Part shown: positions 1,871-38,024 of the stretch, piece after piece | Layout of the letters: the number at the start of each line of letters is the position of its first letter | How positions within the stretch are numbered: the first letter of the stretch is position 1 | Virus record (IMG/VR): IMGVR_UViG_3300032334_002666 | Span: 1 to 63,276 of that record | Direction: 5' to 3' (one strand) | Length of the DNA: 63,276 nucleotides | From: a virus | Taxonomy: Duplodnaviria; Caudoviricetes | Notes under the pieces: model-generated | Seen by the model: the letters and a program-made list of their open reading frames with translations, nothing else | What the model was told of the DNA's origin: nothing | Database searches by the model: none | Program-made: the position numbers and the translations under genes

Positions 1871-2038
1871 ATGAAGTATATTTTAAACCAGGCAAAATAC
1901 CTATTTGAAAAGGTAACTAATACTCGTGTTATATGTGATAAATGTGGATGGAATTGGGCAATCGCCGATGGCGGTAAGGATGTGTACGTATGTCACAAAT
2001 GCTGGACTAATAACACCCCAAAAGAAGCTTTAAAATAA
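1871..2038 (+). CDS. 55-aa zinc-ribbon protein (not in ORF track)
   Basis: MKYILNQAKYLFEKVTNTRVICDKCGWNWAIADGGKDVYVCHKCW...; two CxxC pairs; follows a late promoter motif. Confidence 0.7.
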   Translation: MKYILNQAKYLFEKVTNTRVICDKCGWNWAIADGGKDVYVCHKCWTNNTPKEALK

Positions 2039-14787: not shown

Positions 14788-16428
14788 ATGGCACGTACTA
14801 AAATTTTTAAGCGTTCAAGCGATGCTCGCTTAGCGAACACATGGCAGCCGATTTTAGAAGGTTACGGTGCTGATGTTGCAAAGACTCCATGGTTAGCTGA
14901 GTACGCTCACAACCACGCTATCTTTGATAACACTACACCAATCTTTGAAAACACTGCTCCAGGTGTATTCTTCCAAACTCCAGGTTCTCTTGGTGGTTTT
15001 ATGGGAAATCCATCAGCTCCAACATCAGCAATGACTCCGTTCACTGCAGGTGCTAAGAATTCTTTCTCAGCTGATGCTAACGGTTCTGGTGATAAATTTC
15101 CATCACTTTTACCAGTTGCTATTCAAGTAGCAGCAAAAACTATTGGTTTTGATCTAGTTCCAGTTATCCCTATGGATTCTCCAGTTGGATTCCTTCCTTA
15201 CTTGGATTATTTATATGCAGGTGGTAGAACTGGTACAGGCGAGTTTGATCCTTACTTAGTTAAAATTGAAGGTGTTACTTCAGCATCATTCAACCCAACA
15301 CCAGCTCCAGGTGATACTGCAACAGTTTCTGGATCAGGTGCAGGAGATTTTGTTCTTCACTTCGTAGGATACTCTCGTGTAGACGGTCAATTGATTCTTA
15401 AAGTAGTATCTGATACAGGTACAAATACTTTATCCACTTCACTTACAGGTAACACTATTACTATTAATGGTGATACTTCTGGTAACGTAACTGGAGTTTC
15501 TCTAGTTTCTGCATTAGAAAACCATATTTCTGGTTTTACTTCAGTATCTGATGCTGATTATGCAACTACTCCATTCAATGGTTCTTACCTTCCTTCTACA
15601 GGAAACGTACCAGGATCAATGAGAAGAGAAGAAGGTGAAAACTCTAAATTCCGTCAAATGGGATTAAGAATGTTCACTAAATTTGTTGAAGCTGAAACTG
15701 ATCAAGTATCAATTTCTGCAACAGTTGAGCAAATCCAAGACTTGAACAGAGTTTGGAATTATGATGTTATCTCTATGTTGGAAAACGTAGCAGTTAATGA
15801 CTTAGCTCAATCAATCAACAAAAGATTAGTTGATAAAGTATTACAACTTGCTGATGTTCACTCTACAGAAGTTAACTTAGTTGAAGGTACAGGTATTACT
15901 ACTCTTGACCTGACTGCTGGTGGATTTGATAACACTTCTACATTACAAAGAAGATTGGTTACTAAAGTTCTTGAAATGGCAAACTTGATTTACCATAGAG
16001 GACGTTTTGGAGCTGGTACTTTCTTAGTAACTAACGGACGTGTTGCTTCTGCAATGGCTGATGTTGCTGGTTACTCAATCGCACAAGTTCCAACTGATAT
16101 GGGTGGAGTTGCAGGTAACCTTTACCCAGCTGGTAAAGTTTACGGAGTACAAGTTTACGTTGATCCTAACATGGCTTGGGGAGACTCAAGAATCATGATT
16201 GGACGTAAAGGTGCTGACGAAGAACCGGGTGTTAAATTCATGCCATACATCATGGCTGAATCTCTTCAGACTATCTCTGAAGGTACATTCTCTCCAAAAA
16301 TCGGTATGAAATCAAGATACGCGATTACTGAAGCAGGATGGCATCCTGAAACTCAATACATTAGTATTGATGTTACTGGTGCTGCTCTTGGAGTTCTTAC
16401 AGGTTCTACTGCGTTAGTAAGTATCTAA
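14788..16428 (+). CDS. Major capsid protein (T4 gp23-like)
   Basis: DLVPVIPMDSPVG, TVEQIQDL, VYVDPN, FMPY and PKIGMKSRY are gp23 motifs; strong codon bias. Confidence 0.93.
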   Translation: MARTKIFKRSSDARLANTWQPILEGYGADVAKTPWLAEYAHNHAIFDNTTPIFENTAPGVFFQTPGSLGGFMGNPSAPTSAMTPFTAGAKNSFSADANGSGDKFPSLLPVAIQVAAKTIGFDLVPVIPMDSPVGFLPYLDYLYAGGRTGTGEFDPYLVKIEGVTSASFNPTPAPGDTATVSGSGAGDFVLHFVGYSRVDGQLILKVVSDTGTNTLSTSLTGNTITINGDTSGNVTGVSLVSALENHISGFTSVSDADYATTPFNGSYLPSTGNVPGSMRREEGENSKFRQMGLRMFTKFVEAETDQVSISATVEQIQDLNRVWNYDVISMLENVAVNDLAQSINKRLVDKVLQLADVHSTEVNLVEGTGITTLDLTAGGFDNTSTLQRRLVTKVLEMANLIYHRGRFGAGTFLVTNGRVASAMADVAGYSIAQVPTDMGGVAGNLYPAGKVYGVQVYVDPNMAWGDSRIMIGRKGADEEPGVKFMPYIMAESLQTISEGTFSPKIGMKSRYAITEAGWHPETQYISIDVTGAALGVLTGSTALVSI

Positions 16429-16889: not shown

Positions 16890-17411
16890 TTGAGTATGTC
16901 GTTTATTAATTGGGGACATGAGACTCCTGAACAAAAGGAAATTAGAAGAAGAATGGAAGATGAGATGATGTTTGAACAGGCATCTTATAATGCTGCGGTA
17001 GCCGCGGTAGCTGCCGCCGGCTCAGGAGGAAATACTTTATTCTTAGTTCCACCACCTGAACCTGGAGAAACTTTATATTATATCAGACTGCTTGATTTTG
17101 CACATGGATTAGTATTTATGTTAGACGGATTTTTCTATGTGAATGATTCTACTCATATCGTACAGAGATTTTATGATTTGGCCAACCCAACCGTTGATAT
17201 TCTATCAACCGGCCACTCTGGAGGCCCTACATATCTCTACTATCCTGGATGGTTGTGTTTTGATGAAGGAGGATGTAATATAACTAGTCTTCCATATGCA
17301 TTCGGTTCAACTATAGGAGATTATAACATGTTTGGTAGTACTTCGTCTAGTAACGGATTAGTAGGTGGATTTGGTCCAGTTACTTATGTCTTCAGCACTA
17401 CTCCATTTTAA
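16890..17411 (+). CDS. Hypothetical protein (charged N-terminal helix, Ala/Gly linker, beta-rich C-terminal domain)
   Basis: 173-aa ORF ending before a terminator. Confidence 0.65.
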   Translation: MSMSFINWGHETPEQKEIRRRMEDEMMFEQASYNAAVAAVAAAGSGGNTLFLVPPPEPGETLYYIRLLDFAHGLVFMLDGFFYVNDSTHIVQRFYDLANPTVDILSTGHSGGPTYLYYPGWLCFDEGGCNITSLPYAFGSTIGDYNMFGSTSSSNGLVGGFGPVTYVFSTTPF

Positions 17412-17434: not shown

Positions 17435-17461
17435 AAAAGGATCCCAGTAGGATCCTTTTTT
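17435..17461. terminator. Bidirectional terminator
   Basis: AAAAGGATCC-CAGTA-GGATCCTTTTTT between convergent units. Confidence 0.85.
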
Positions 17462-17465
17462 AGTA

Positions 17466-17650
17466 TGGTGGGCTCGCCTAGAGGAGAAAGTAAAATTAGC
17501 TACAGAATTTTGAAGAAATAATGTTTGCGTTTTTGAGCTCTTAAATCAGGAATCTTGAGTTCACTATCACGATCGTACCATCCTAGTTCTGAGTAATGAC
17601 TTTGCGGGTCAGATACAGCATATAATACTCTGCCCCATCTAGGGTCGCCC
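17466..17650 (-). ncRNA. Candidate structured RNA (~185 nt) with a long closing helix and a 3' ACCA end
   Basis: 5' GGGC-GAC-CCTAGA-T-GGGG-C-AGAGTA...GCTGTA pairs with 3' TGTAGC...TACTTT-CTCC-TCTAGG-CGA-GCCC-ACCA. It lies between the DIP1984-like gene and a terminator. Confidence 0.55.
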
Positions 17651-17657
17651 ATGTATT

Positions 17658-18086
17658 TTAAATGCTAGTAGTATGATTAAATTGATCTAGTTTTTCTTGA
17701 AGTTTTTCAATATTTTCTTCAAGCTCTTCGATTTTTGTATCTTGCCACATAATATTTAATTCAGCAACCATTTGAGAGGTTGTGCTTTCATATCGATCAC
17801 GATAAACACCGTGTGTCGTATTTACTACTTTTACTCGTTGTACAAAAGTTTTCATCTCTGAAAGAGCAAAGATATCGCGTCTTACTGGAGAAGATGCTTC
17901 ATGAATCCGTGTTTTTAGGTCGACTAATTGGTCAACTTCAGTTTGTACTTGTCCAAAAAGTTCAGTTGAACTATATGGTCTTTCAGATCCCTCTTGAATA
18001 GAGTTATATTTCTGAATCTTGTCCCAAAGCTTTTGGATCTTAGCTACTTTTTTGTTCTTTTCTTTTAGTGCTTGTGCGATTGTCAT
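17658..18086 (-). CDS. DIP1984-like coiled-coil protein
   Basis: MTIAQALKEKNK...NSIQEG.ERP...LKTRIHEA...LQEKLDQFNHTT pattern; likely start at ATG 18086. Confidence 0.7.
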   Translation of the reverse strand: MTIAQALKEKNKKVAKIQKLWDKIQKYNSIQEGSERPYSSTELFGQVQTEVDQLVDLKTRIHEASSPVRRDIFALSEMKTFVQRVKVVNTTHGVYRDRYESTTSQMVAELNIMWQDTKIEELEENIEKLQEKLDQFNHTTSI

Positions 18087-18339
18087 ATTGTGGGTTTTTA
18101 TTTTTTTTAGATACTCTCTTTCGGTATTTTTCCAAGTCATTGACTAGAACAACAGTCGGTTTGAATCCATCATAAATAGGATCATCTAGCCATGATTGAT
18201 ATATCAACTGACCAATTGAATCATTTGAAATAAATATTTTTTTTCTGTCAGCTGTCGCAACAACATAATCGTTTGATATTACAGTTTGAGAAAAAGCCGG
18301 AGCTCCAATCAATAGTAAGGGAAATAATAATTTTTTCAT
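18040..18339 (-). CDS. Small secreted protein
   Basis: Signal peptide MKKLLFPLLLIGAPAFS-Q. Confidence 0.65.
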   Translation of the reverse strand: MKKLLFPLLLIGAPAFSQTVISNDYVVATADRKKIFISNDSIGQLIYQSWLDDPIYDGFKPTVVLVNDLEKYRKRVSKKNKNPQYDNRTSTKRKEQKSS

Positions 18340-18852: not shown

Positions 18853-20220
18853 TTAGTTATTATACTCTTTTTGCAGGGCTTTTTTCAATTCTTGTAAATC
18901 TTCCCTGTACATTTGTAATGGTTCTCTCTTCTTGATCTCCTCAAGCTCCCTCTCTTTTTGAAACTCTGCACTTATTAAGTCTTCATATGTTTCTTTAGTA
19001 AGTGAATGAATCGGCATTCCTAATAGGTATTGGTATGATCCATTTATCTCATCAAAGTCAGCAGTTTGTAGATAGAGAATAATCTCTTTTCGAGGCACAT
19101 TATTGATTTTTAATTTACCCTCAATTATTGCTTTAACGAAACGTGCTCTATTTGAGAGAAGAGTAAGTTCCTGATTTAGGGTATCGATAATAAACTGTTT
19201 TCTCTTATCATAAAAAGAGAGCCTAAATTTTACAAAATATTCGATAATTTCGCTAGCTGAGCTAAATATCTTAAGTTTACCAAATTCGTCAAGAACAGTA
19301 AAGTTTTCAGTCTGACGCTCTTCCATCTTAAGTAGTCTTTTCAGTCTAACTGAATCGCTTAACGTCTTAAGATCTTCTCTTCTAAACTTAATGACATAAT
19401 TAATATTAGACTTGCAATTATTCTCATAGCTTGCTATTCTTCTAGAATCCTCAAGGTCTATTAGGTGCTGATCAAATTTCTCATATGTGATAGATGGAGG
19501 AAGCTCGGTAATAGACACAGTAGTTGTGTTTTTTACTTCATACTTTCCGCTAAACACCCAAGAAAACTTTTCAGGATCAACTAGGTCACAGGCTCCAATA
19601 AATTCTCTATTCCATGGAGTCGGTTCTGCATATTTCTTTTGATCTAGTGATTTTAAGCAGGCATCTATCAGGCTAACTGGATTGCGATTTAATATATTTG
19701 TTGCGAAACCTACAGCAATCCCGCTACCGCCATTTAGGAGGACAGTCGGGATAATAGGTAGAAAATATTTAGGTTCAATCTCATTGCCTTCTTCGTATCG
19801 GGATTCTAATAATTCAAAATCCTTATATAAGAGTCTAAAGTTCTTATGTAGTTTAGTTGCAATATATCGAGCGGCTGCAGCTTCTGGTGAACGTAGGGAT
19901 CCAAACTGACCAATATCTTCTAATACTGGCATTGAATTCTTAAATTTTTGAGCCATTCCTACAATAGCTGAATTTAGAGATCCATCACCATGATGATAAA
20001 AAGCATCGGCTGCTACTCTACCTGCAAGTTGAAAGATTTTCATTGGTTTTTCAGAACCGTTTTTCCAAACCTTATTTGCAACAAAGATTACTTTACGTTG
20101 AGTCGGTTTAAATCCATCGATTACTGACGGAATTGCTCTTTCCTCAACAACGTATACTGCATATTCTTTGTAGTCGTTGTCTAGATAATCGGTTACTGTT
20201 TTTATTTCGGGCTTTCGCAT
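18853..20220 (-). CDS. DNA topoisomerase II, GyrA/ParC-like subunit (T4 gp52-like)
   Basis: DGFKPTQRK, YHHGD, catalytic AAARYI and GIAVGFAT motifs. Confidence 0.95.
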   Translation of the reverse strand: MRKPEIKTVTDYLDNDYKEYAVYVVEERAIPSVIDGFKPTQRKVIFVANKVWKNGSEKPMKIFQLAGRVAADAFYHHGDGSLNSAIVGMAQKFKNSMPVLEDIGQFGSLRSPEAAAARYIATKLHKNFRLLYKDFELLESRYEEGNEIEPKYFLPIIPTVLLNGGSGIAVGFATNILNRNPVSLIDACLKSLDQKKYAEPTPWNREFIGACDLVDPEKFSWVFSGKYEVKNTTTVSITELPPSITYEKFDQHLIDLEDSRRIASYENNCKSNINYVIKFRREDLKTLSDSVRLKRLLKMEERQTENFTVLDEFGKLKIFSSASEIIEYFVKFRLSFYDKRKQFIIDTLNQELTLLSNRARFVKAIIEGKLKINNVPRKEIILYLQTADFDEINGSYQYLLGMPIHSLTKETYEDLISAEFQKERELEEIKKREPLQMYREDLQELKKALQKEYNN

Positions 20221-36915: not shown

Positions 36916-38024
36916 TAATCGTATTGTTTTGTGTTTCTTAATGAATCATAAATCTCTTTGAATTTATCAACTATTTGAGTCGATTGATCAGTAGGAAGAT
37001 TCATAAGCTTGATGCGTTCTTCTAATAGAGTGAAAATGTTGTATTCGTAATTTGAATCTAGTTCAAGCTCGCTCTTATTTTTTAATTGATCTTGCGAATA
37101 TGAAGCAAATTCAAGCCGGCGATGTCCATAGCTTTTTACCAGTTCTGTAAATTGTGAAAGTGGAAACTTCTTTGAAAATTCCGACTCGATCATAATATCA
37201 ACGAAATTATTTACGAATTCCTGTTGAATCTGGTCAGGTGTTAATTCAAGCAGATCTAATACTTCAAATCTAAGATGACGTGGTGAAAAATCATTTGGGA
37301 TAAATTTCTCAGTTACCTCTTTACCGCTTACATCAAGAACATAGAATCCTTTTTGATTTCCGCGATCACCTCTATCCATTTCGTATGGAGTTCCAACATA
37401 GAGAACGTTTCCTTTTTCTTGTCGAATATGGATATGACCAGAATAGATTCGAGTAAATTGGTTAAGTTCAGATTGTTCTAATCCGTGTTCAAGTTTAGTG
37501 ACTTTCGTTAGGTTAAAACCTTTAACATCAGCATGACAAAAAACATATTTGGCTGACCGATATGATTGGATTTGATTTTTTAACTCTTCTAGTTTCTCAA
37601 TCCACGGCAACATTAAAAAGTTATGAGAATTGATAGTTAATATCTCAGGCTTCTCATAAATCTTAAAATTAGAATACATGCGATCAAATCCCTCTAGTGA
37701 GTGAGTATCGGTTCGGTCTTTATAATATACATCATGATTGCCTAATATTACAAAGACGCCTCGTTTAAACTTCTTTGTGAATACTTCAGCAATCTTTAGG
37801 GAAAGCTTGTAAATTCGGGTATTAGTAGATTCTCTAACATGGTTCCAGTCACCTACTTGTACTAGAATATCTGTCTCTGGATCAAAGCCTTCCTCCTCTA
37901 TCTGTTTAAGAAAATAGTCGATAAGATATGTTGTTTGAATATCTGACCACTCGACTGAGTTATTACGTACGCCTAAGTGAAGATCACCAAGTACAAATAT
38001 TTTTCTAATGTTATCTAATTTCAT
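36915..38024 (-). CDS. Mre11/SbcD-like nuclease (T4 gp47)
   Basis: GDLHLG, GD, GNHD and SGHIH motifs; coupled to the gp46-like gene. Confidence 0.93.
   Translation of the reverse strand: MKLDNIRKIFVLGDLHLGVRNNSVEWSDIQTTYLIDYFLKQIEEEGFDPETDILVQVGDWNHVRESTNTRIYKLSLKIAEVFTKKFKRGVFVILGNHDVYYKDRTDTHSLEGFDRMYSNFKIYEKPEILTINSHNFLMLPWIEKLEELKNQIQSYRSAKYVFCHADVKGFNLTKVTKLEHGLEQSELNQFTRIYSGHIHIRQEKGNVLYVGTPYEMDRGDRGNQKGFYVLDVSGKEVTEKFIPNDFSPRHLRFEVLDLLELTPDQIQQEFVNNFVDIMIESEFSKKFPLSQFTELVKSYGHRRLEFASYSQDQLKNKSELELDSNYEYNIFTLLEERIKLMNLPTDQSTQIVDKFKEIYDSLRNTKQYD

What the first reader, a model, noticed from the sequence alone, without database searches (positions are those of the whole stretch)
17466..18086. 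Rod-shaped ~185-nt RNA with a tRNA-like ACCA end directly downstream of a DIP1984-like gene
Seen: this is the largest gap in a tightly packed window. On the minus strand its two ends are complementary over about 35 nt in five stacked helices: GGGC/GCCC, a GAC/CGA internal loop, CCTAGA/TCTAGG, GGGG/CTCC, AGAGTA/TACTTT and GCTGTA/TGTAGC. The 3' strand ends GCCC-A-CCA, like an acceptor stem with a discriminator, a few nt before a terminator. The enclosed loop has 7-8-nt quasi-repeats (ACTCAAG ATTCCTG ATTTAAG AGCTCAAA AACGCAAA ... TTCAAA). The element starts 7 nt after the stop of a DIP1984-like coiled-coil gene, a family whose function I do not know. Inference: a co-transcribed protein-RNA module in which an oligomeric protein binds the repeats, as in a type III-like toxin-antitoxin pair or a tRNA-mimic/decoy RNP. 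Caveat: a 50-codon ORF (17500-17652) overlaps it, so a coding or dual function is possible.
Basis: partly seen in the sequence, partly recalled or inferred. Interest (0 to 1): 0.85.

Follow-up and report, generated by a model that had tools for sequence, protein, structure and literature searches.

The report
Conserved repeat-bearing RNA behind DIP1984-like gene
A roughly 185-base folded RNA with regularly spaced UCA repeats sits directly behind a small gene of unknown function in many lake phages and some Bacteroidota, and matches no described RNA family; the pair probably works as one RNA-protein unit.

Summary
On the minus strand, 17464-17653 is a structured RNA that starts 7 nt after the stop of a 142-aa DIP1984/DUF6847-fold gene and ends just before an intrinsic terminator. 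A covariance model found the same element directly 3' of the gene in 81 of 100 homologous loci. No match lay elsewhere in 433.5 kb. The end-pairing rod covaries strongly: 85% of cells paired against 48.8% in shuffles, and all 21 pairs show changes on both sides. The ~110-nt interior is conserved in sequence, not in structure. It holds GAU repeats followed by UCA(A) repeats spaced 7-8 nt apart. The 50-codon ORF is spurious. The ACCA "tRNA-like" end is clade-specific and lies before the terminator. Rfam, ARAGORN, PADLOC and my literature searches give no name. The pair also occurs as a single copy in Bacteroidota chromosomes. My best reading (0.5) is that the RNA is a multivalent platform for an oligomeric protein, most likely its own upstream-encoded protein, which is predicted to self-associate. 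Binding is inferred, not shown. It does not meet the defining features of type III toxin-antitoxin systems or of tRNA mimics.

The parts
17658..18086 (-). DIP1984/DUF6847-like gene, 142 aa plus the TAA stop
   Evidence: Pfam DUF6847 30.1 bits against cut-off 27. NF038048 40.5 bits, below its cut-off of 70. AlphaFold2 model with pLDDT 90.6 matches PDB 3kdq, TM 0.74-0.82. Homologues are nearly all about 142 aa and begin MTIAQALKEKNKK.
17464..17653 (-). Whole structured RNA element, as matched by covariance models R1 and R2
   Evidence: R1 194.5 bits and R2 170.1 bits. Homologous elements follow the gene in 81 of 100 loci searched.
17614..17651 (-). 5' arm of the rod (helices P1-P5)
   Evidence: Minimum-free-energy fold. 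Covariation on 27 and on 79 distinct sequences. RNAalifold recovers the rod independently.
17469..17504 (-). 3' arm of the rod (helices P5-P1)
   Evidence: Same calls as the 5' arm. G-U/U-G 153 against A-C/C-A 44 places the structure on the gene's sense strand.
17593..17610 (-). Small hairpin P6 (GAC / 7-nt loop holding GCAAA / GUC), followed by a conserved UAC
   Evidence: Three pairs, each with changes on both sides, 80.9% of cells paired. UAC is at least 80% conserved in the consensus.
17505..17574 (-). Conserved, apparently unpaired centre: GAU-N3-GAU, then UCA(A)-type repeats spaced 7-8 nt, ending UUCAAAAUUC
   Evidence: Consensus and UCA-to-UCA spacing of 7 nt (143 times), 8 nt (62) and 9 nt (27). 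Periodic runs against shuffles. RNAalifold predicts no consensus pairs here.
17466..17469 (-). ACCA tail after P1
   Evidence: Present in the sequence. A 50-80% majority in the alignment, absent in distant clades. A terminator follows it, so it is not the primary 3' end.
17435..17459 (-). Intrinsic terminator (11-pair stem, then a U run); its palindromic stem also faces the convergent gene ending at 17411
   Evidence: Terminator scan; sequence.
17500..17652 (-). 50-codon ORF: not a gene
   Evidence: A 1-nt deletion inside it in the 98%-identical relative, and in 3 of 4 sequencing runs laid on it. From the same ATG, L004 stops after 10 codons and L006 after 7 (read from the sequences). No Pfam or NCBIfam match.

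Best explanation
The stretch encodes a conserved structured RNA of about 185 nt, made as the 3' extension of the DIP1984-like mRNA. Its two ends pair into a rod of about five short helices. The rod closes a loop of about 110 nt. That loop holds one small hairpin, two to four GAU repeats, and typically three to seven strictly periodic UCA repeats (more when degenerate units are counted) spaced 7-8 nt apart.

I propose that this loop is a multivalent docking platform for an oligomeric protein. The most likely ligand is the protein encoded immediately upstream. Because the protein is made next to its own transcript, it could load onto it as it is translated, several dimers per RNA. The result would be a ribonucleoprotein particle, or a feedback or sequestration complex.

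The cassette moves as a unit. In some phage clades it has its own host-type promoter. In the T4-like clade it sits at the end of an operon. In some Bacteroidota it is a single chromosomal copy.

Shown here: the RNA structure, the repeat periodicity, and the strict gene-RNA linkage.
Predicted: that the protein self-associates.
Inferred: that the protein binds the RNA, the stoichiometry, and the biological role. The role may be early host takeover, defence or counter-defence.
For: Structure:
- On 79 distinct sequences, 85.0% of cells pair against 48.8% in shuffles. The covariation score is 0.696 against 0.181 (0 of 500 shuffles reach it). Slid controls reach at most 0.170. All 21 pairs change on both sides.
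- The smaller set of 27 sequences gives the same picture.
- RNAalifold recovers the rod on its own.
- In an alignment-free test, each 5' arm was paired with its own 3' region and with those of unrelated clades. In 42 of 95 cases the cognate pair beat every non-cognate one; median z = -2.45.
- G-U/U-G outnumber A-C/C-A by 153 to 44, which places the structure on the sense strand.

Linkage:
- 81 of 100 loci have the element right after the gene, with no other match at E <= 0.1. A further 5 of 27 harder cases match at E <= 0.1.
- 15 of 15 exact RNA-core pattern matches in IMG/VR lie on gene-bearing contigs.
- The model finds one copy per genome, next to the gene, in 4 of 5 bacterial genomes.
- The DIP1984-like gene is the only neighbour shared by all 30 phage loci.

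Repeats:
- UCA spacing is 7 nt (143 times) or 8 nt (62 times).
- Periodic runs of at least 4 occur in 52 of 79 RNAs, against 6 of 1580 shuffles.

Protein:
- Four copies score 0.65 against a best control of 0.24. The runs agree in at least 87% of contacts and the partner's pLDDT is at least 87. In the tool's calibration this mark was reached by 20 of 30 proteins solved as pairs and by 1 of 23 solved as single chains. PDB 3kdq holds four chains, so the pass may come from memory of that structure.
- Invariant K8, K10, N11, K12, Q130, D134 and N137 are not among the interface residues listed.

Expression:
- In one metatranscriptome run, a 236-nt contig covers 17474-17708, that is, the RNA plus the last 48 nt of the gene. 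Apart from a 35-nt piece with 5 mismatches, nothing else of the 1001 nt laid was found. Depth is 2.3, and DNA carry-over is not excluded.
Against: - Nothing here shows binding.
- The protein is not basic: median pI 6.5 and median net charge -1 over 52 homologues. It carries no recognised RNA-binding domain.
- One canonical DIP1984 member (L177) has a terminator right after its stop and no such RNA.
- Homologue L053 keeps the N-terminal ALKxKN motif but is followed directly by another gene.
- L051 keeps the pairing arms but has lost the repeat region.
- The thermodynamic signal of the single sequence is weak (z = -1.57).
- The predicted unpaired probability at the UCA sites is only 0.50, against 0.30 in the arms.
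- The pair counts were made on alignments fitted to the model, which leans them towards the structure.
- In the window itself only three strict UCA units remain.
Confidence: 0.5

Rival explanations
1. The RNA is a sponge, decoy or scaffold for a different protein. Candidates are a host RNA-binding protein, a ribonuclease, ribosomal protein S1 or another phage factor. The DIP1984-like protein would be functionally related but would not itself be the ligand.
For: - The repeat core (UCAAAAU / UUCAAGA) stays recognisable where protein identity falls to 35-40%. That fits a very conserved, possibly cellular, ligand.
- The protein is near-neutral and has no RNA-binding domain.
- Several phage clades place a host-type TTGACA-N17-TATAAT promoter just upstream, which suggests early expression.
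Against: - The strict one-to-one linkage with this gene across phages of apparently different hosts and in bacterial chromosomes is hard to explain if the gene product does not need the RNA.
- A decoy for a host factor has no obvious use as a single-copy chromosomal gene in that host.
Confidence: 0.2
2. The RNA is a purely cis-acting 3' untranslated domain. It would stabilise the mRNA against 3' exonucleases, form part of the terminator, or mediate feedback on the gene, with no function as a separate RNA or particle.
For: - It always abuts the stop codon. In some clades the stop codon lies inside the first helix (L038, L123, L124, L131).
- In bacterial copies the last helix is followed directly by a U run, as in a terminator (L140).
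- No promoter-like site lies between gene and RNA.
Against: - A stabiliser or terminator does not need about 110 nt of conserved sequence with periodic triplets.
- Most phage copies carry a separate canonical terminator hairpin after the rod.
Confidence: 0.17
3. The pair is a toxin-antitoxin-like or abortive-infection-like module. The RNA would neutralise a harmful DIP1984-like protein by sequestering it, working like a type III system. This is a special case of the best explanation.
For: - A two-part cassette of a small protein plus a repeat RNA.
- Sporadic distribution: 4 of 401 sampled genomes of the class.
- Presence in phages, in bacterial chromosomes and next to a DUF932 gene. That DUF932 genes are typical of mobile elements is recalled, not tested here.
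- Relatives of the family sit on Acinetobacter plasmids beside BrnT-BrnA (PMC10889530, one passage read).
Against: - The defining features of type III systems are not met (see the membership test).
- PADLOC gives only a 13.8-bit coiled-coil hit to LmuB.
- In one bacterial context the gene sits at a conserved place beside an M48 peptidase in 6 loci, which looks like stable inheritance.
Confidence: 0.08
4. The RNA is a tRNA mimic whose GCCC-A-CCA end is recognised by CCA-adding enzyme, synthetases or anticodon nucleases.
For: - GCCC-A/G-CCA is conserved in the window's own clade.
- The heptads resemble 7-nt tRNA loops by eye. This is my own recollection and was not tested.
Against: - ARAGORN finds no tRNA or tmRNA, and no Rfam tRNA-like family matches.
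- The CCA is absent in distant clades.
- A terminator hairpin follows it, so it is not a free 3' end without processing.
Confidence: 0.02
5. The stretch codes for the 50-aa peptide, or it is a DNA-level element such as iterons, an origin or a packaging site.
For: - An ATG-started 50-codon frame exists.
- 7-nt repeats between inverted repeats could in principle be protein-binding DNA.
Against: - The frame is broken by a 1-nt deletion in the 98% relative and in 3 of 4 runs laid. It is cut short after 7-10 codons in relatives whose protein is 69-81% identical.
- The G-U to A-C ratio of 153:44 shows a strand-specific, RNA-type constraint.
- The position is always 3' of the gene on its sense strand.
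Confidence: 0.02

Closest known systems
Type III toxin-antitoxin systems (ToxIN, CptIN, TenpIN)
   Same: A small protein gene is paired with an adjacent repetitive non-coding RNA thought to bind an oligomer of that protein. They are linked to phages and mobile elements. This description is recalled, not taken from a call.
   Different: There the RNA lies upstream of the toxin, consists of tandem units of about 34-36 nt cut out by the toxin, and the toxin is an endoribonuclease. Here the RNA is downstream, and the 7-8-nt repeats sit inside a closed rod. The protein has the helical 3kdq fold.
Proteins that read periodic triplets, such as TRAP ((G/U)AG repeats) and HutP (UAG repeats spaced by 4 nt)
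   Same: Trinucleotides repeated at a fixed short spacing in single-stranded RNA, one per subunit of a multimer. HutP's spacing also gives a 7-nt period. This description is recalled.
   Different: Those sites lie in 5' leaders and control attenuation, and the proteins are ring-forming folds unrelated to this one. Here the sites lie in a 3' element closed by a rod, and the protein is a helical bundle with a beta hairpin.
Rod-shaped regulatory RNAs of similar size (6S RNA, Y RNA/YrlA) and sponge RNAs (CsrB/RsmZ)
   Same: About 185 nt, with 5' and 3' ends paired into a rod around a large internal region that engages a protein. Sponges carry many copies of a short motif. This description is recalled.
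   Different: No covariance-model match to any Rfam family, even at E <= 10. The motif here is UCA/GAU in an unpaired loop, not GGA in hairpin loops. No Ro/TROVE protein or RNA polymerase link was tested.
RNAs encoded at the 3' end of their protein partner's gene (omega RNA of IscB/TnpB)
   Same: A structured RNA directly 3' of, or overlapping the end of, the gene for the protein it is thought to bind, inherited as a unit. This description is recalled.
   Different: Those proteins are RNA-guided nucleases and the RNAs carry a guide. Nothing of that kind is seen here.
Candidate structured RNAs of viruses catalogued from IMG/VR (Fremin et al. 2023, PMC10690425)
   Same: The same data source and the same kind of evidence (covariation in intergenic regions). 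The catalogue lists 8,495 unnamed candidates (abstract and passages read).
   Different: The passages I read discuss tRNA-like candidates and candidates upstream of genes. They mention neither this RNA nor DUF6847. The supplementary tables were closed, so this RNA may be listed there under a number.

Membership tests
tRNA or tRNA-like element | A cloverleaf or T-arm detectable by a tRNA finder | tested here: not met
   ARAGORN finds 0 genes in the window. No tRNA, tmRNA or tRNA-like Rfam family matches at E <= 10.
tRNA or tRNA-like element | A conserved NCCA at the 3' end of the RNA | tested here: not met
   The CCA is only a 50-80% majority in 81 sequences and is absent in distant clades. A terminator hairpin follows it.
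Type III toxin-antitoxin system | Tandem RNA repeats of about 34-36 nt upstream of the toxin gene | tested here: not met
   The repeats are 7-8 nt and lie downstream of the gene inside a rod.
Type III toxin-antitoxin system | A toxin of the ToxN/AbiEii endoribonuclease type | tested here: not met
   Foldseek against the PDB gives only 3kdq at E <= 0.001. Pfam gives only DUF6847.
Type III toxin-antitoxin system | The protein is toxic and the RNA neutralises it | not testable with these tools
   This needs expression of the protein with and without the RNA.
DIP1984 / DUF6847 protein family | A profile score above the curated cut-off | tested here: inconclusive
   Pfam PF20935 scores 30.1 against 27, so it is met. 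NCBIfam NF038048 scores 40.5 against 70, so it is not met. The protein is therefore a divergent subfamily.
DIP1984 / DUF6847 protein family | The same fold as the solved member 3kdq | tested here: met
   TM 0.74/0.70 with chain A and 0.82/0.77 with chain C. The next hit has E = 0.52.
Any Rfam 15 family (including 6S, 6S-Flavo, Y RNA-like and Bacteroides sRNAs) | A covariance-model score at or above the gathering threshold | tested here: not met
   0 matches in the whole window. The best sub-threshold match is 21 bits against 50, and it lies on the other strand over the terminator.
Periodic-triplet RNA platforms (TRAP/HutP type) | Trinucleotide repeats at a fixed short spacing in an unpaired region | tested here: met
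   UCA spacing is 7 nt (143 times) or 8 nt (62 times). Runs of at least 4 occur in 52 of 79 RNAs against 6 of 1580 shuffles. No consensus pairs are predicted there.
Periodic-triplet RNA platforms (TRAP/HutP type) | A protein of the TRAP or HutP family | tested here: not met
   Pfam and NCBIfam gave no such family for the DIP1984-like gene or for the eight neighbouring ORFs scanned. The protein's fold is helical.
Known anti-phage defence systems (PADLOC 2.0) | A match to a defence-system protein model | tested here: not met
   Only a 13.8-bit hit (E = 0.0059) to the coiled-coil part of LmuB for the window protein. None for three other family members scanned (two close relatives and one canonical DIP1984 protein) or for four neighbours.

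The most novel reading that the evidence does not exclude
The DIP1984-like protein and its 3' RNA form a previously unrecognised kind of ribonucleoprotein. Several protein dimers would line up on heptad-spaced UCA/GAU repeats held in a loop by a covarying rod. The particle would be carried by lake phages of several host groups and by Bacteroidota. It would act in phage-host conflict: early host takeover, counter-defence, or an RNA-antitoxin module built differently from type III systems. This would give the first function to the DUF6847 ('septicolysin') family, which counts 1,726 clusters at 50% identity.
Probability: 0.25. Interest if true: 0.85.

Novelty: categorically new. Interest (0 to 1): 0.72.

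Why it matters
- The RNA is a well-supported structured family that Rfam 15 does not contain.
- It is tied one-to-one to a protein family whose function is unknown although a crystal structure dates from 2009 (3kdq).
- The protein subfamily is large: 1,726 representatives at E <= 0.001 among 1.84 billion clusters.
- The family label ('septicolysin', DIP1984 family) also appears on Acinetobacter resistance plasmids. No function is assigned in the one passage I read or by any library searched.
- A regular 7-8-nt triplet repeat inside a closed loop is an unusual and easily testable design. It points directly to a binding experiment that could give the family a first function.
- The cassette occurs in phages and in host chromosomes, which makes it a candidate player in phage-host conflict.

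Limits: the function is inferred. The RNA may already be listed, unnamed, in the supplementary tables of PMC10690425, which I could not open.

Tried and rejected
- Rfam at gathering scores on the whole window, and at E <= 10 on the region: nothing usable.
- ARAGORN: nothing.
- blastn of the region against 50,697 phage records: no match. tblastn of the protein: one uncultured phage, 31% identity.
- PDB sequence search with the family profile: 3kdq only at E = 0.53. The link to DIP1984 came from the fold.
- A plain MAFFT alignment of 17 sequences let RNAalifold see only 9 pairs. The distant arms needed alignment to a covariance model.
- A weak R1 match elsewhere in the window (37606-37742, 18.9 bits, E = 0.13) lies inside a 369-aa ORF. 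It did not reappear with R2 at E <= 0.1. I treat it as chance.
- Two canonical DIP1984 genes found in a sample of genomes of the phylum. L177 has no such RNA. L176 has a GC-rich 300-nt tail of another kind.
- The 143-aa gene after the RNA in bacterial context B is not a paralogue of the DIP1984-like gene (hhalign probability 0.1).
- PADLOC and PHROGs gave no function.
- Literature. DIP1984: 1 paper, plasmid annotation only. DUF6847/PF20935: 0 papers. 3KDQ: 0 papers. 'septicolysin': 34 papers, of which I saw 15 listings only. Two broader searches found only PMC10690425 as relevant.
- Sequencing runs: apart from the probable source sample, holders carry 0.14-0.35 of the sampled words. I laid four of them. 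The parts of the stretch without cover in the RNA run are not evidence of absence.
- The GC-rich insert of L014/L063 has no Rfam match. Its 22-nt core has no other copy in IMG/VR (1 match, on L014's own contig).
Full report
**Setting.** The window is a 63-kb fragment of an uncultured virus record. It has T4-like genes: a Gp23 major capsid protein at 14788-16425 (+) and a topoisomerase II subunit at 18856-20220 (-). The finding lies where two transcription directions converge. On the minus strand the order is topoisomerase, three small ORFs, a DIP1984-like gene, the candidate RNA, then a terminator. On the plus strand the capsid gene block ends at 17411.

**The observation.**
- The gene's true start is ATG 18086. 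This gives 142 aa, like nearly all of the 112 homologues found. The stop is TAA at 17658-17660.
- Seven bases later the minus strand reads UGGGC. This pairs with GCCCA at 17469-17473.
- On energy alone the signal is weak: z = -1.57, and 13 of 200 shuffles fold as well. Whether it exceeds chance therefore had to be settled by comparison.
- The terminator scan finds an 11-pair hairpin plus a U run at 17459-17435 on the minus strand. It finds no promoter-like site between the gene and the RNA.

**The protein.**
- Pfam DUF6847 is just above its cut-off (30.1 against 27 bits). NCBIfam's DIP1984 model is below its own (40.5 against 70).
- An AlphaFold2 model from 52 homologues has pLDDT 90.6. It shows four helices and a beta hairpin.
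- The model matches only PDB 3kdq, the DIP1984 protein of Corynebacterium diphtheriae, which has no known function. TM is 0.74-0.82, and the next hit has E = 0.52.
- So the protein is a divergent subfamily of that fold.
- The subfamily is large: 1,726 representatives at 50% identity reach E <= 0.001, and the 150 listed are nearly all 137-182 aa.
- PADLOC and PHROGs add nothing.
- An automatic cluster name for bacterial relatives is 'putative Septicolysin'. The DIP1984 label also appears in annotations of Acinetobacter plasmids (PMC10889530, one passage read).

**Relatives of the locus.** Using the protein alignment, I fetched:
- 55 loci from IMG/VR;
- 80 of 149 relatives from metagenome contigs;
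- 17 loci from genome contigs.

Printing the 300 nt after each stop codon showed the same design almost everywhere:
- a 5' stretch complementary to a 3' stretch, with sequences that differ completely between clades;
- a centre with GAU-N3-4-GAU followed by UCAAAA/UUCAAG-type heptads, ending in UCAAAAYUC;
- then a terminator.

**Formal test of the structure.**
- I built a covariance model from 8 close sequences. Its structure held the rod and one hairpin, 21 pairs in all.
- I searched the loci and rebuilt the model from 27 matches.
- The second model matched 81 of 100 sources at E <= 0.1. Every match lay on the gene's strand directly after the gene. There was no other match in 433.5 kb.
- Of 27 further sources, 5 matched at E <= 0.1 and 6 more at E <= 5. 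These sources were the 19 that had missed, plus two canonical DIP1984 loci and six other genome loci.
- The model's first position lies -5 to +30 nt from the stop in 74 of 81 matches. The median length is 183 nt.
- On 79 distinct sequences, 85.0% of cells form standard pairs against 48.8% after shuffling. The covariation score is 0.696 against 0.181 (0 of 500 shuffles reach it). Sliding the partners by 1-3 columns gives at most 0.170. All 21 pairs show changes on both sides. The 27-sequence set agrees.
- These alignments were fitted to the model, so I added two checks that do not depend on that.
  - RNAalifold run on the alignment predicts the same rod (18 pairs) and nothing else.
  - An alignment-free test paired each 5' arm with its own 3' region and with those of unrelated clades. 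The cognate pair beat every non-cognate one in 42 of 95 cases; median z = -2.45. The misses include L014 and L063, whose insert displaces the arm.
- G-U/U-G pairs outnumber A-C/C-A by 153 to 44. The constraint therefore acts on the gene's sense strand, as for an RNA.

**The centre.**
- No consensus pairs are predicted in the ~110-nt interior, yet its sequence is the most conserved part.
- The 81-sequence consensus reads: UAC .. GAUnnUGAU .. UCAAAau UCAanau UCAanngn UCAAaann ucAaaan ucAnaann UcAAAAcUC.
- Distances between successive UCA triplets are 7 nt (143 times), 8 nt (62) and 9 nt (27).
- A periodic run of at least 3 UCA occurs in 73 of 79 RNAs, and of at least 4 in 52 of 79. After shuffling the centre the figures are 50 and 6 of 1580.
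- The window's own copy is among the more degenerate, with three strict UCA units.
- The predicted unpaired probability at these triplets is 0.50, against 0.30 in the arms. This difference is modest.

**Not coding.**
- The 98%-identical relative has a 1-nt deletion inside the 50-codon frame.
- The same deletion is seen in 3 of the 4 sequencing runs laid on the stretch.
- Read from the same ATG, L004 stops after 10 codons and L006 after 7 (sequences).

**Not tRNA-like.**
- ARAGORN and Rfam find nothing.
- The CCA after the last helix is a majority feature only. It is missing in distant clades, where the helix runs into the terminator.
- In the window a terminator follows it.

**Linkage and distribution.**
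- Among 30 phage loci compared by clustering the ORFs of their flanks, the DIP1984-like gene is the only gene present in all. The topoisomerase/capsid synteny holds only in the T4-like clade, in 10-14 loci.
- Two exact patterns taken from the RNA core of two different clades hit 13 and 2 stretches in IMG/VR. All 15 lie on contigs that carry the gene.
- Several distant clades have TTGACA-N17-TATAAT just upstream of the gene. There the cassette looks like its own unit: promoter, gene, RNA, terminator.
- The genome-contig loci are mostly Bacteroidota assemblies from metagenomes (Crocinitomicaceae, Cryomorphaceae and other Flavobacteriales).
- In two of them the neighbours are ordinary bacterial genes. 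One has S9 and M48 peptidases and a GNAT acetyltransferase. The other has an ECF sigma factor, a DUF932 protein and polyphosphate kinase.
- Two recurrent bacterial contexts exist.
- The RNA model finds exactly one copy, next to the gene, in 4 of 5 such genomes.
- The subfamily is sporadic: 4 of 401 sampled genomes of the class.
- One canonical DIP1984 gene (L177) has a terminator right after its stop and no such RNA. The RNA therefore goes with this subfamily, not with the whole fold family.

**Expression.** Only contigs were available.
- In one metatranscriptome run, a 236-nt contig (depth 2.3) covers 17474-17708. That is the RNA plus the last 48 nt of the gene. Apart from a 35-nt piece with 5 mismatches, nothing else of the 1001 nt laid was found.
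- This is a weak hint that the region is present in RNA. It does not show ends, strand or level, and DNA carry-over is not excluded.

**How it most likely works.**
- Shown: a closed rod, a conserved unpaired loop with triplets at a fixed 7-8-nt spacing, and strict co-inheritance with one small protein.
- Predicted: the protein self-associates. Four copies score 0.65 against a best control of 0.24. The runs agree in at least 87% of contacts and the partner's pLDDT is at least 87. The mark was reached by 20 of 30 proteins solved as pairs and by 1 of 23 solved as single chains. The pass may come from memory of 3kdq, which holds four chains.
- The interface uses residues 21-110. The invariant N-terminal ALKEKNK stretch and the invariant C-terminal Q130/D134/N137 are not among the contacts listed.
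- Inferred: several protein units dock on the repeats of their own transcript. This would form a particle, or sequester or feed back on the protein.
- I put this at 0.5.
- Against it:
  - the protein is near-neutral (median pI 6.5);
  - it has no known RNA-binding domain;
  - L053 keeps the N-terminal motif without the RNA;
  - no binding has been shown.
- Rivals are a sponge for another protein (0.2), a purely cis-acting 3' domain (0.17), an antitoxin-like special case (0.08), a tRNA mimic (0.02), and a coding or DNA-level element (0.02).

**Comparison with what is known.**
- The design resembles periodic-triplet platforms (TRAP, HutP), sponge RNAs, rod-shaped RNAs of the same size (6S, Y RNA), and RNAs encoded at the 3' end of their partner's gene (omega RNA).
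- It fails the defining features of each family that I could test (see the membership table).
- Rfam 15 has no family for it.
- My searches found no paper on the RNA or on the function of DUF6847/DIP1984/3kdq.
- PMC10690425 catalogues 8,495 unnamed candidate structured RNAs from IMG/VR. I read its abstract and passages. Its supplementary tables were closed, so this RNA may be listed there under a number.

**Verdict.** This is a real, conserved, widely distributed structured RNA of a new family. It is genetically locked to a protein subfamily of unknown function. The idea of a protein-RNA module is plausible and now sharply testable. The tRNA-like and type III readings are not supported as memberships.

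Noticed in passing
L014:2930-3055 and L063:1634-1760: In two relatives a GC-rich insert of about 130 nt sits between the stop codon and the RNA. It folds into a closed multi-hairpin junction (-42.9 and -41.9 kcal/mol; z = -1.8 and -2.5). One hairpin differs in sequence between the two copies but still pairs. It has no Rfam match, and its 22-nt core has no further copy in IMG/VR.
   Followed up: partly
L142, L143, L145, L146, L147 (bacterial context B): In 5 of 15 genome-contig loci, an ECF-type sigma factor gene (176 aa; Sigma70_r2 and r4_2) ends about 55 nt before the DIP1984-like gene on the same strand. A conserved 143-aa protein of unknown family follows the RNA. A link to sigma-factor control is conceivable but untested.
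   Followed up: partly
L054:2362-2434 and L176:1211-1422: tRNA genes lie directly upstream of the DIP1984-type gene in a distant phage relative (tRNA-Gly) and in a canonical bacterial DIP1984 locus (tRNA-Gly and tRNA-Val). The 300-nt tail after the L176 gene contains a T-arm-like GGGTTCGATCCCCAC that ARAGORN does not call as a tRNA.
   Followed up: partly
L051:432-520: One distant relative keeps complementary arms (AATTGAGTG / CACTCAATT) but has only about 70 nt between them and no UCA repeat run. This looks like a decayed copy.
   Followed up: no
window 1871-2038 and 2048-2239: The other long stretch free of large ORFs holds two small ORFs. One is 55 aa with two Cys-x-x-Cys pairs, as in a zinc ribbon. 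The other is 63 aa with a GTG start.
   Followed up: no
window 18040-18339: A 99-codon minus-strand ORF overlaps the start of the DIP1984-like gene by 47 nt. A similar small ORF occurs at this place in 5 of 30 phage loci (cluster 9).
   Followed up: no
L140:3595-3640: In one bacterial copy (L140) the last helix of the rod is followed directly by a U run, with no separate terminator hairpin. The rod itself may therefore serve as the terminator there. A second copy read (L146) shows neither a clear U run nor a hairpin after the rod.
   Followed up: no
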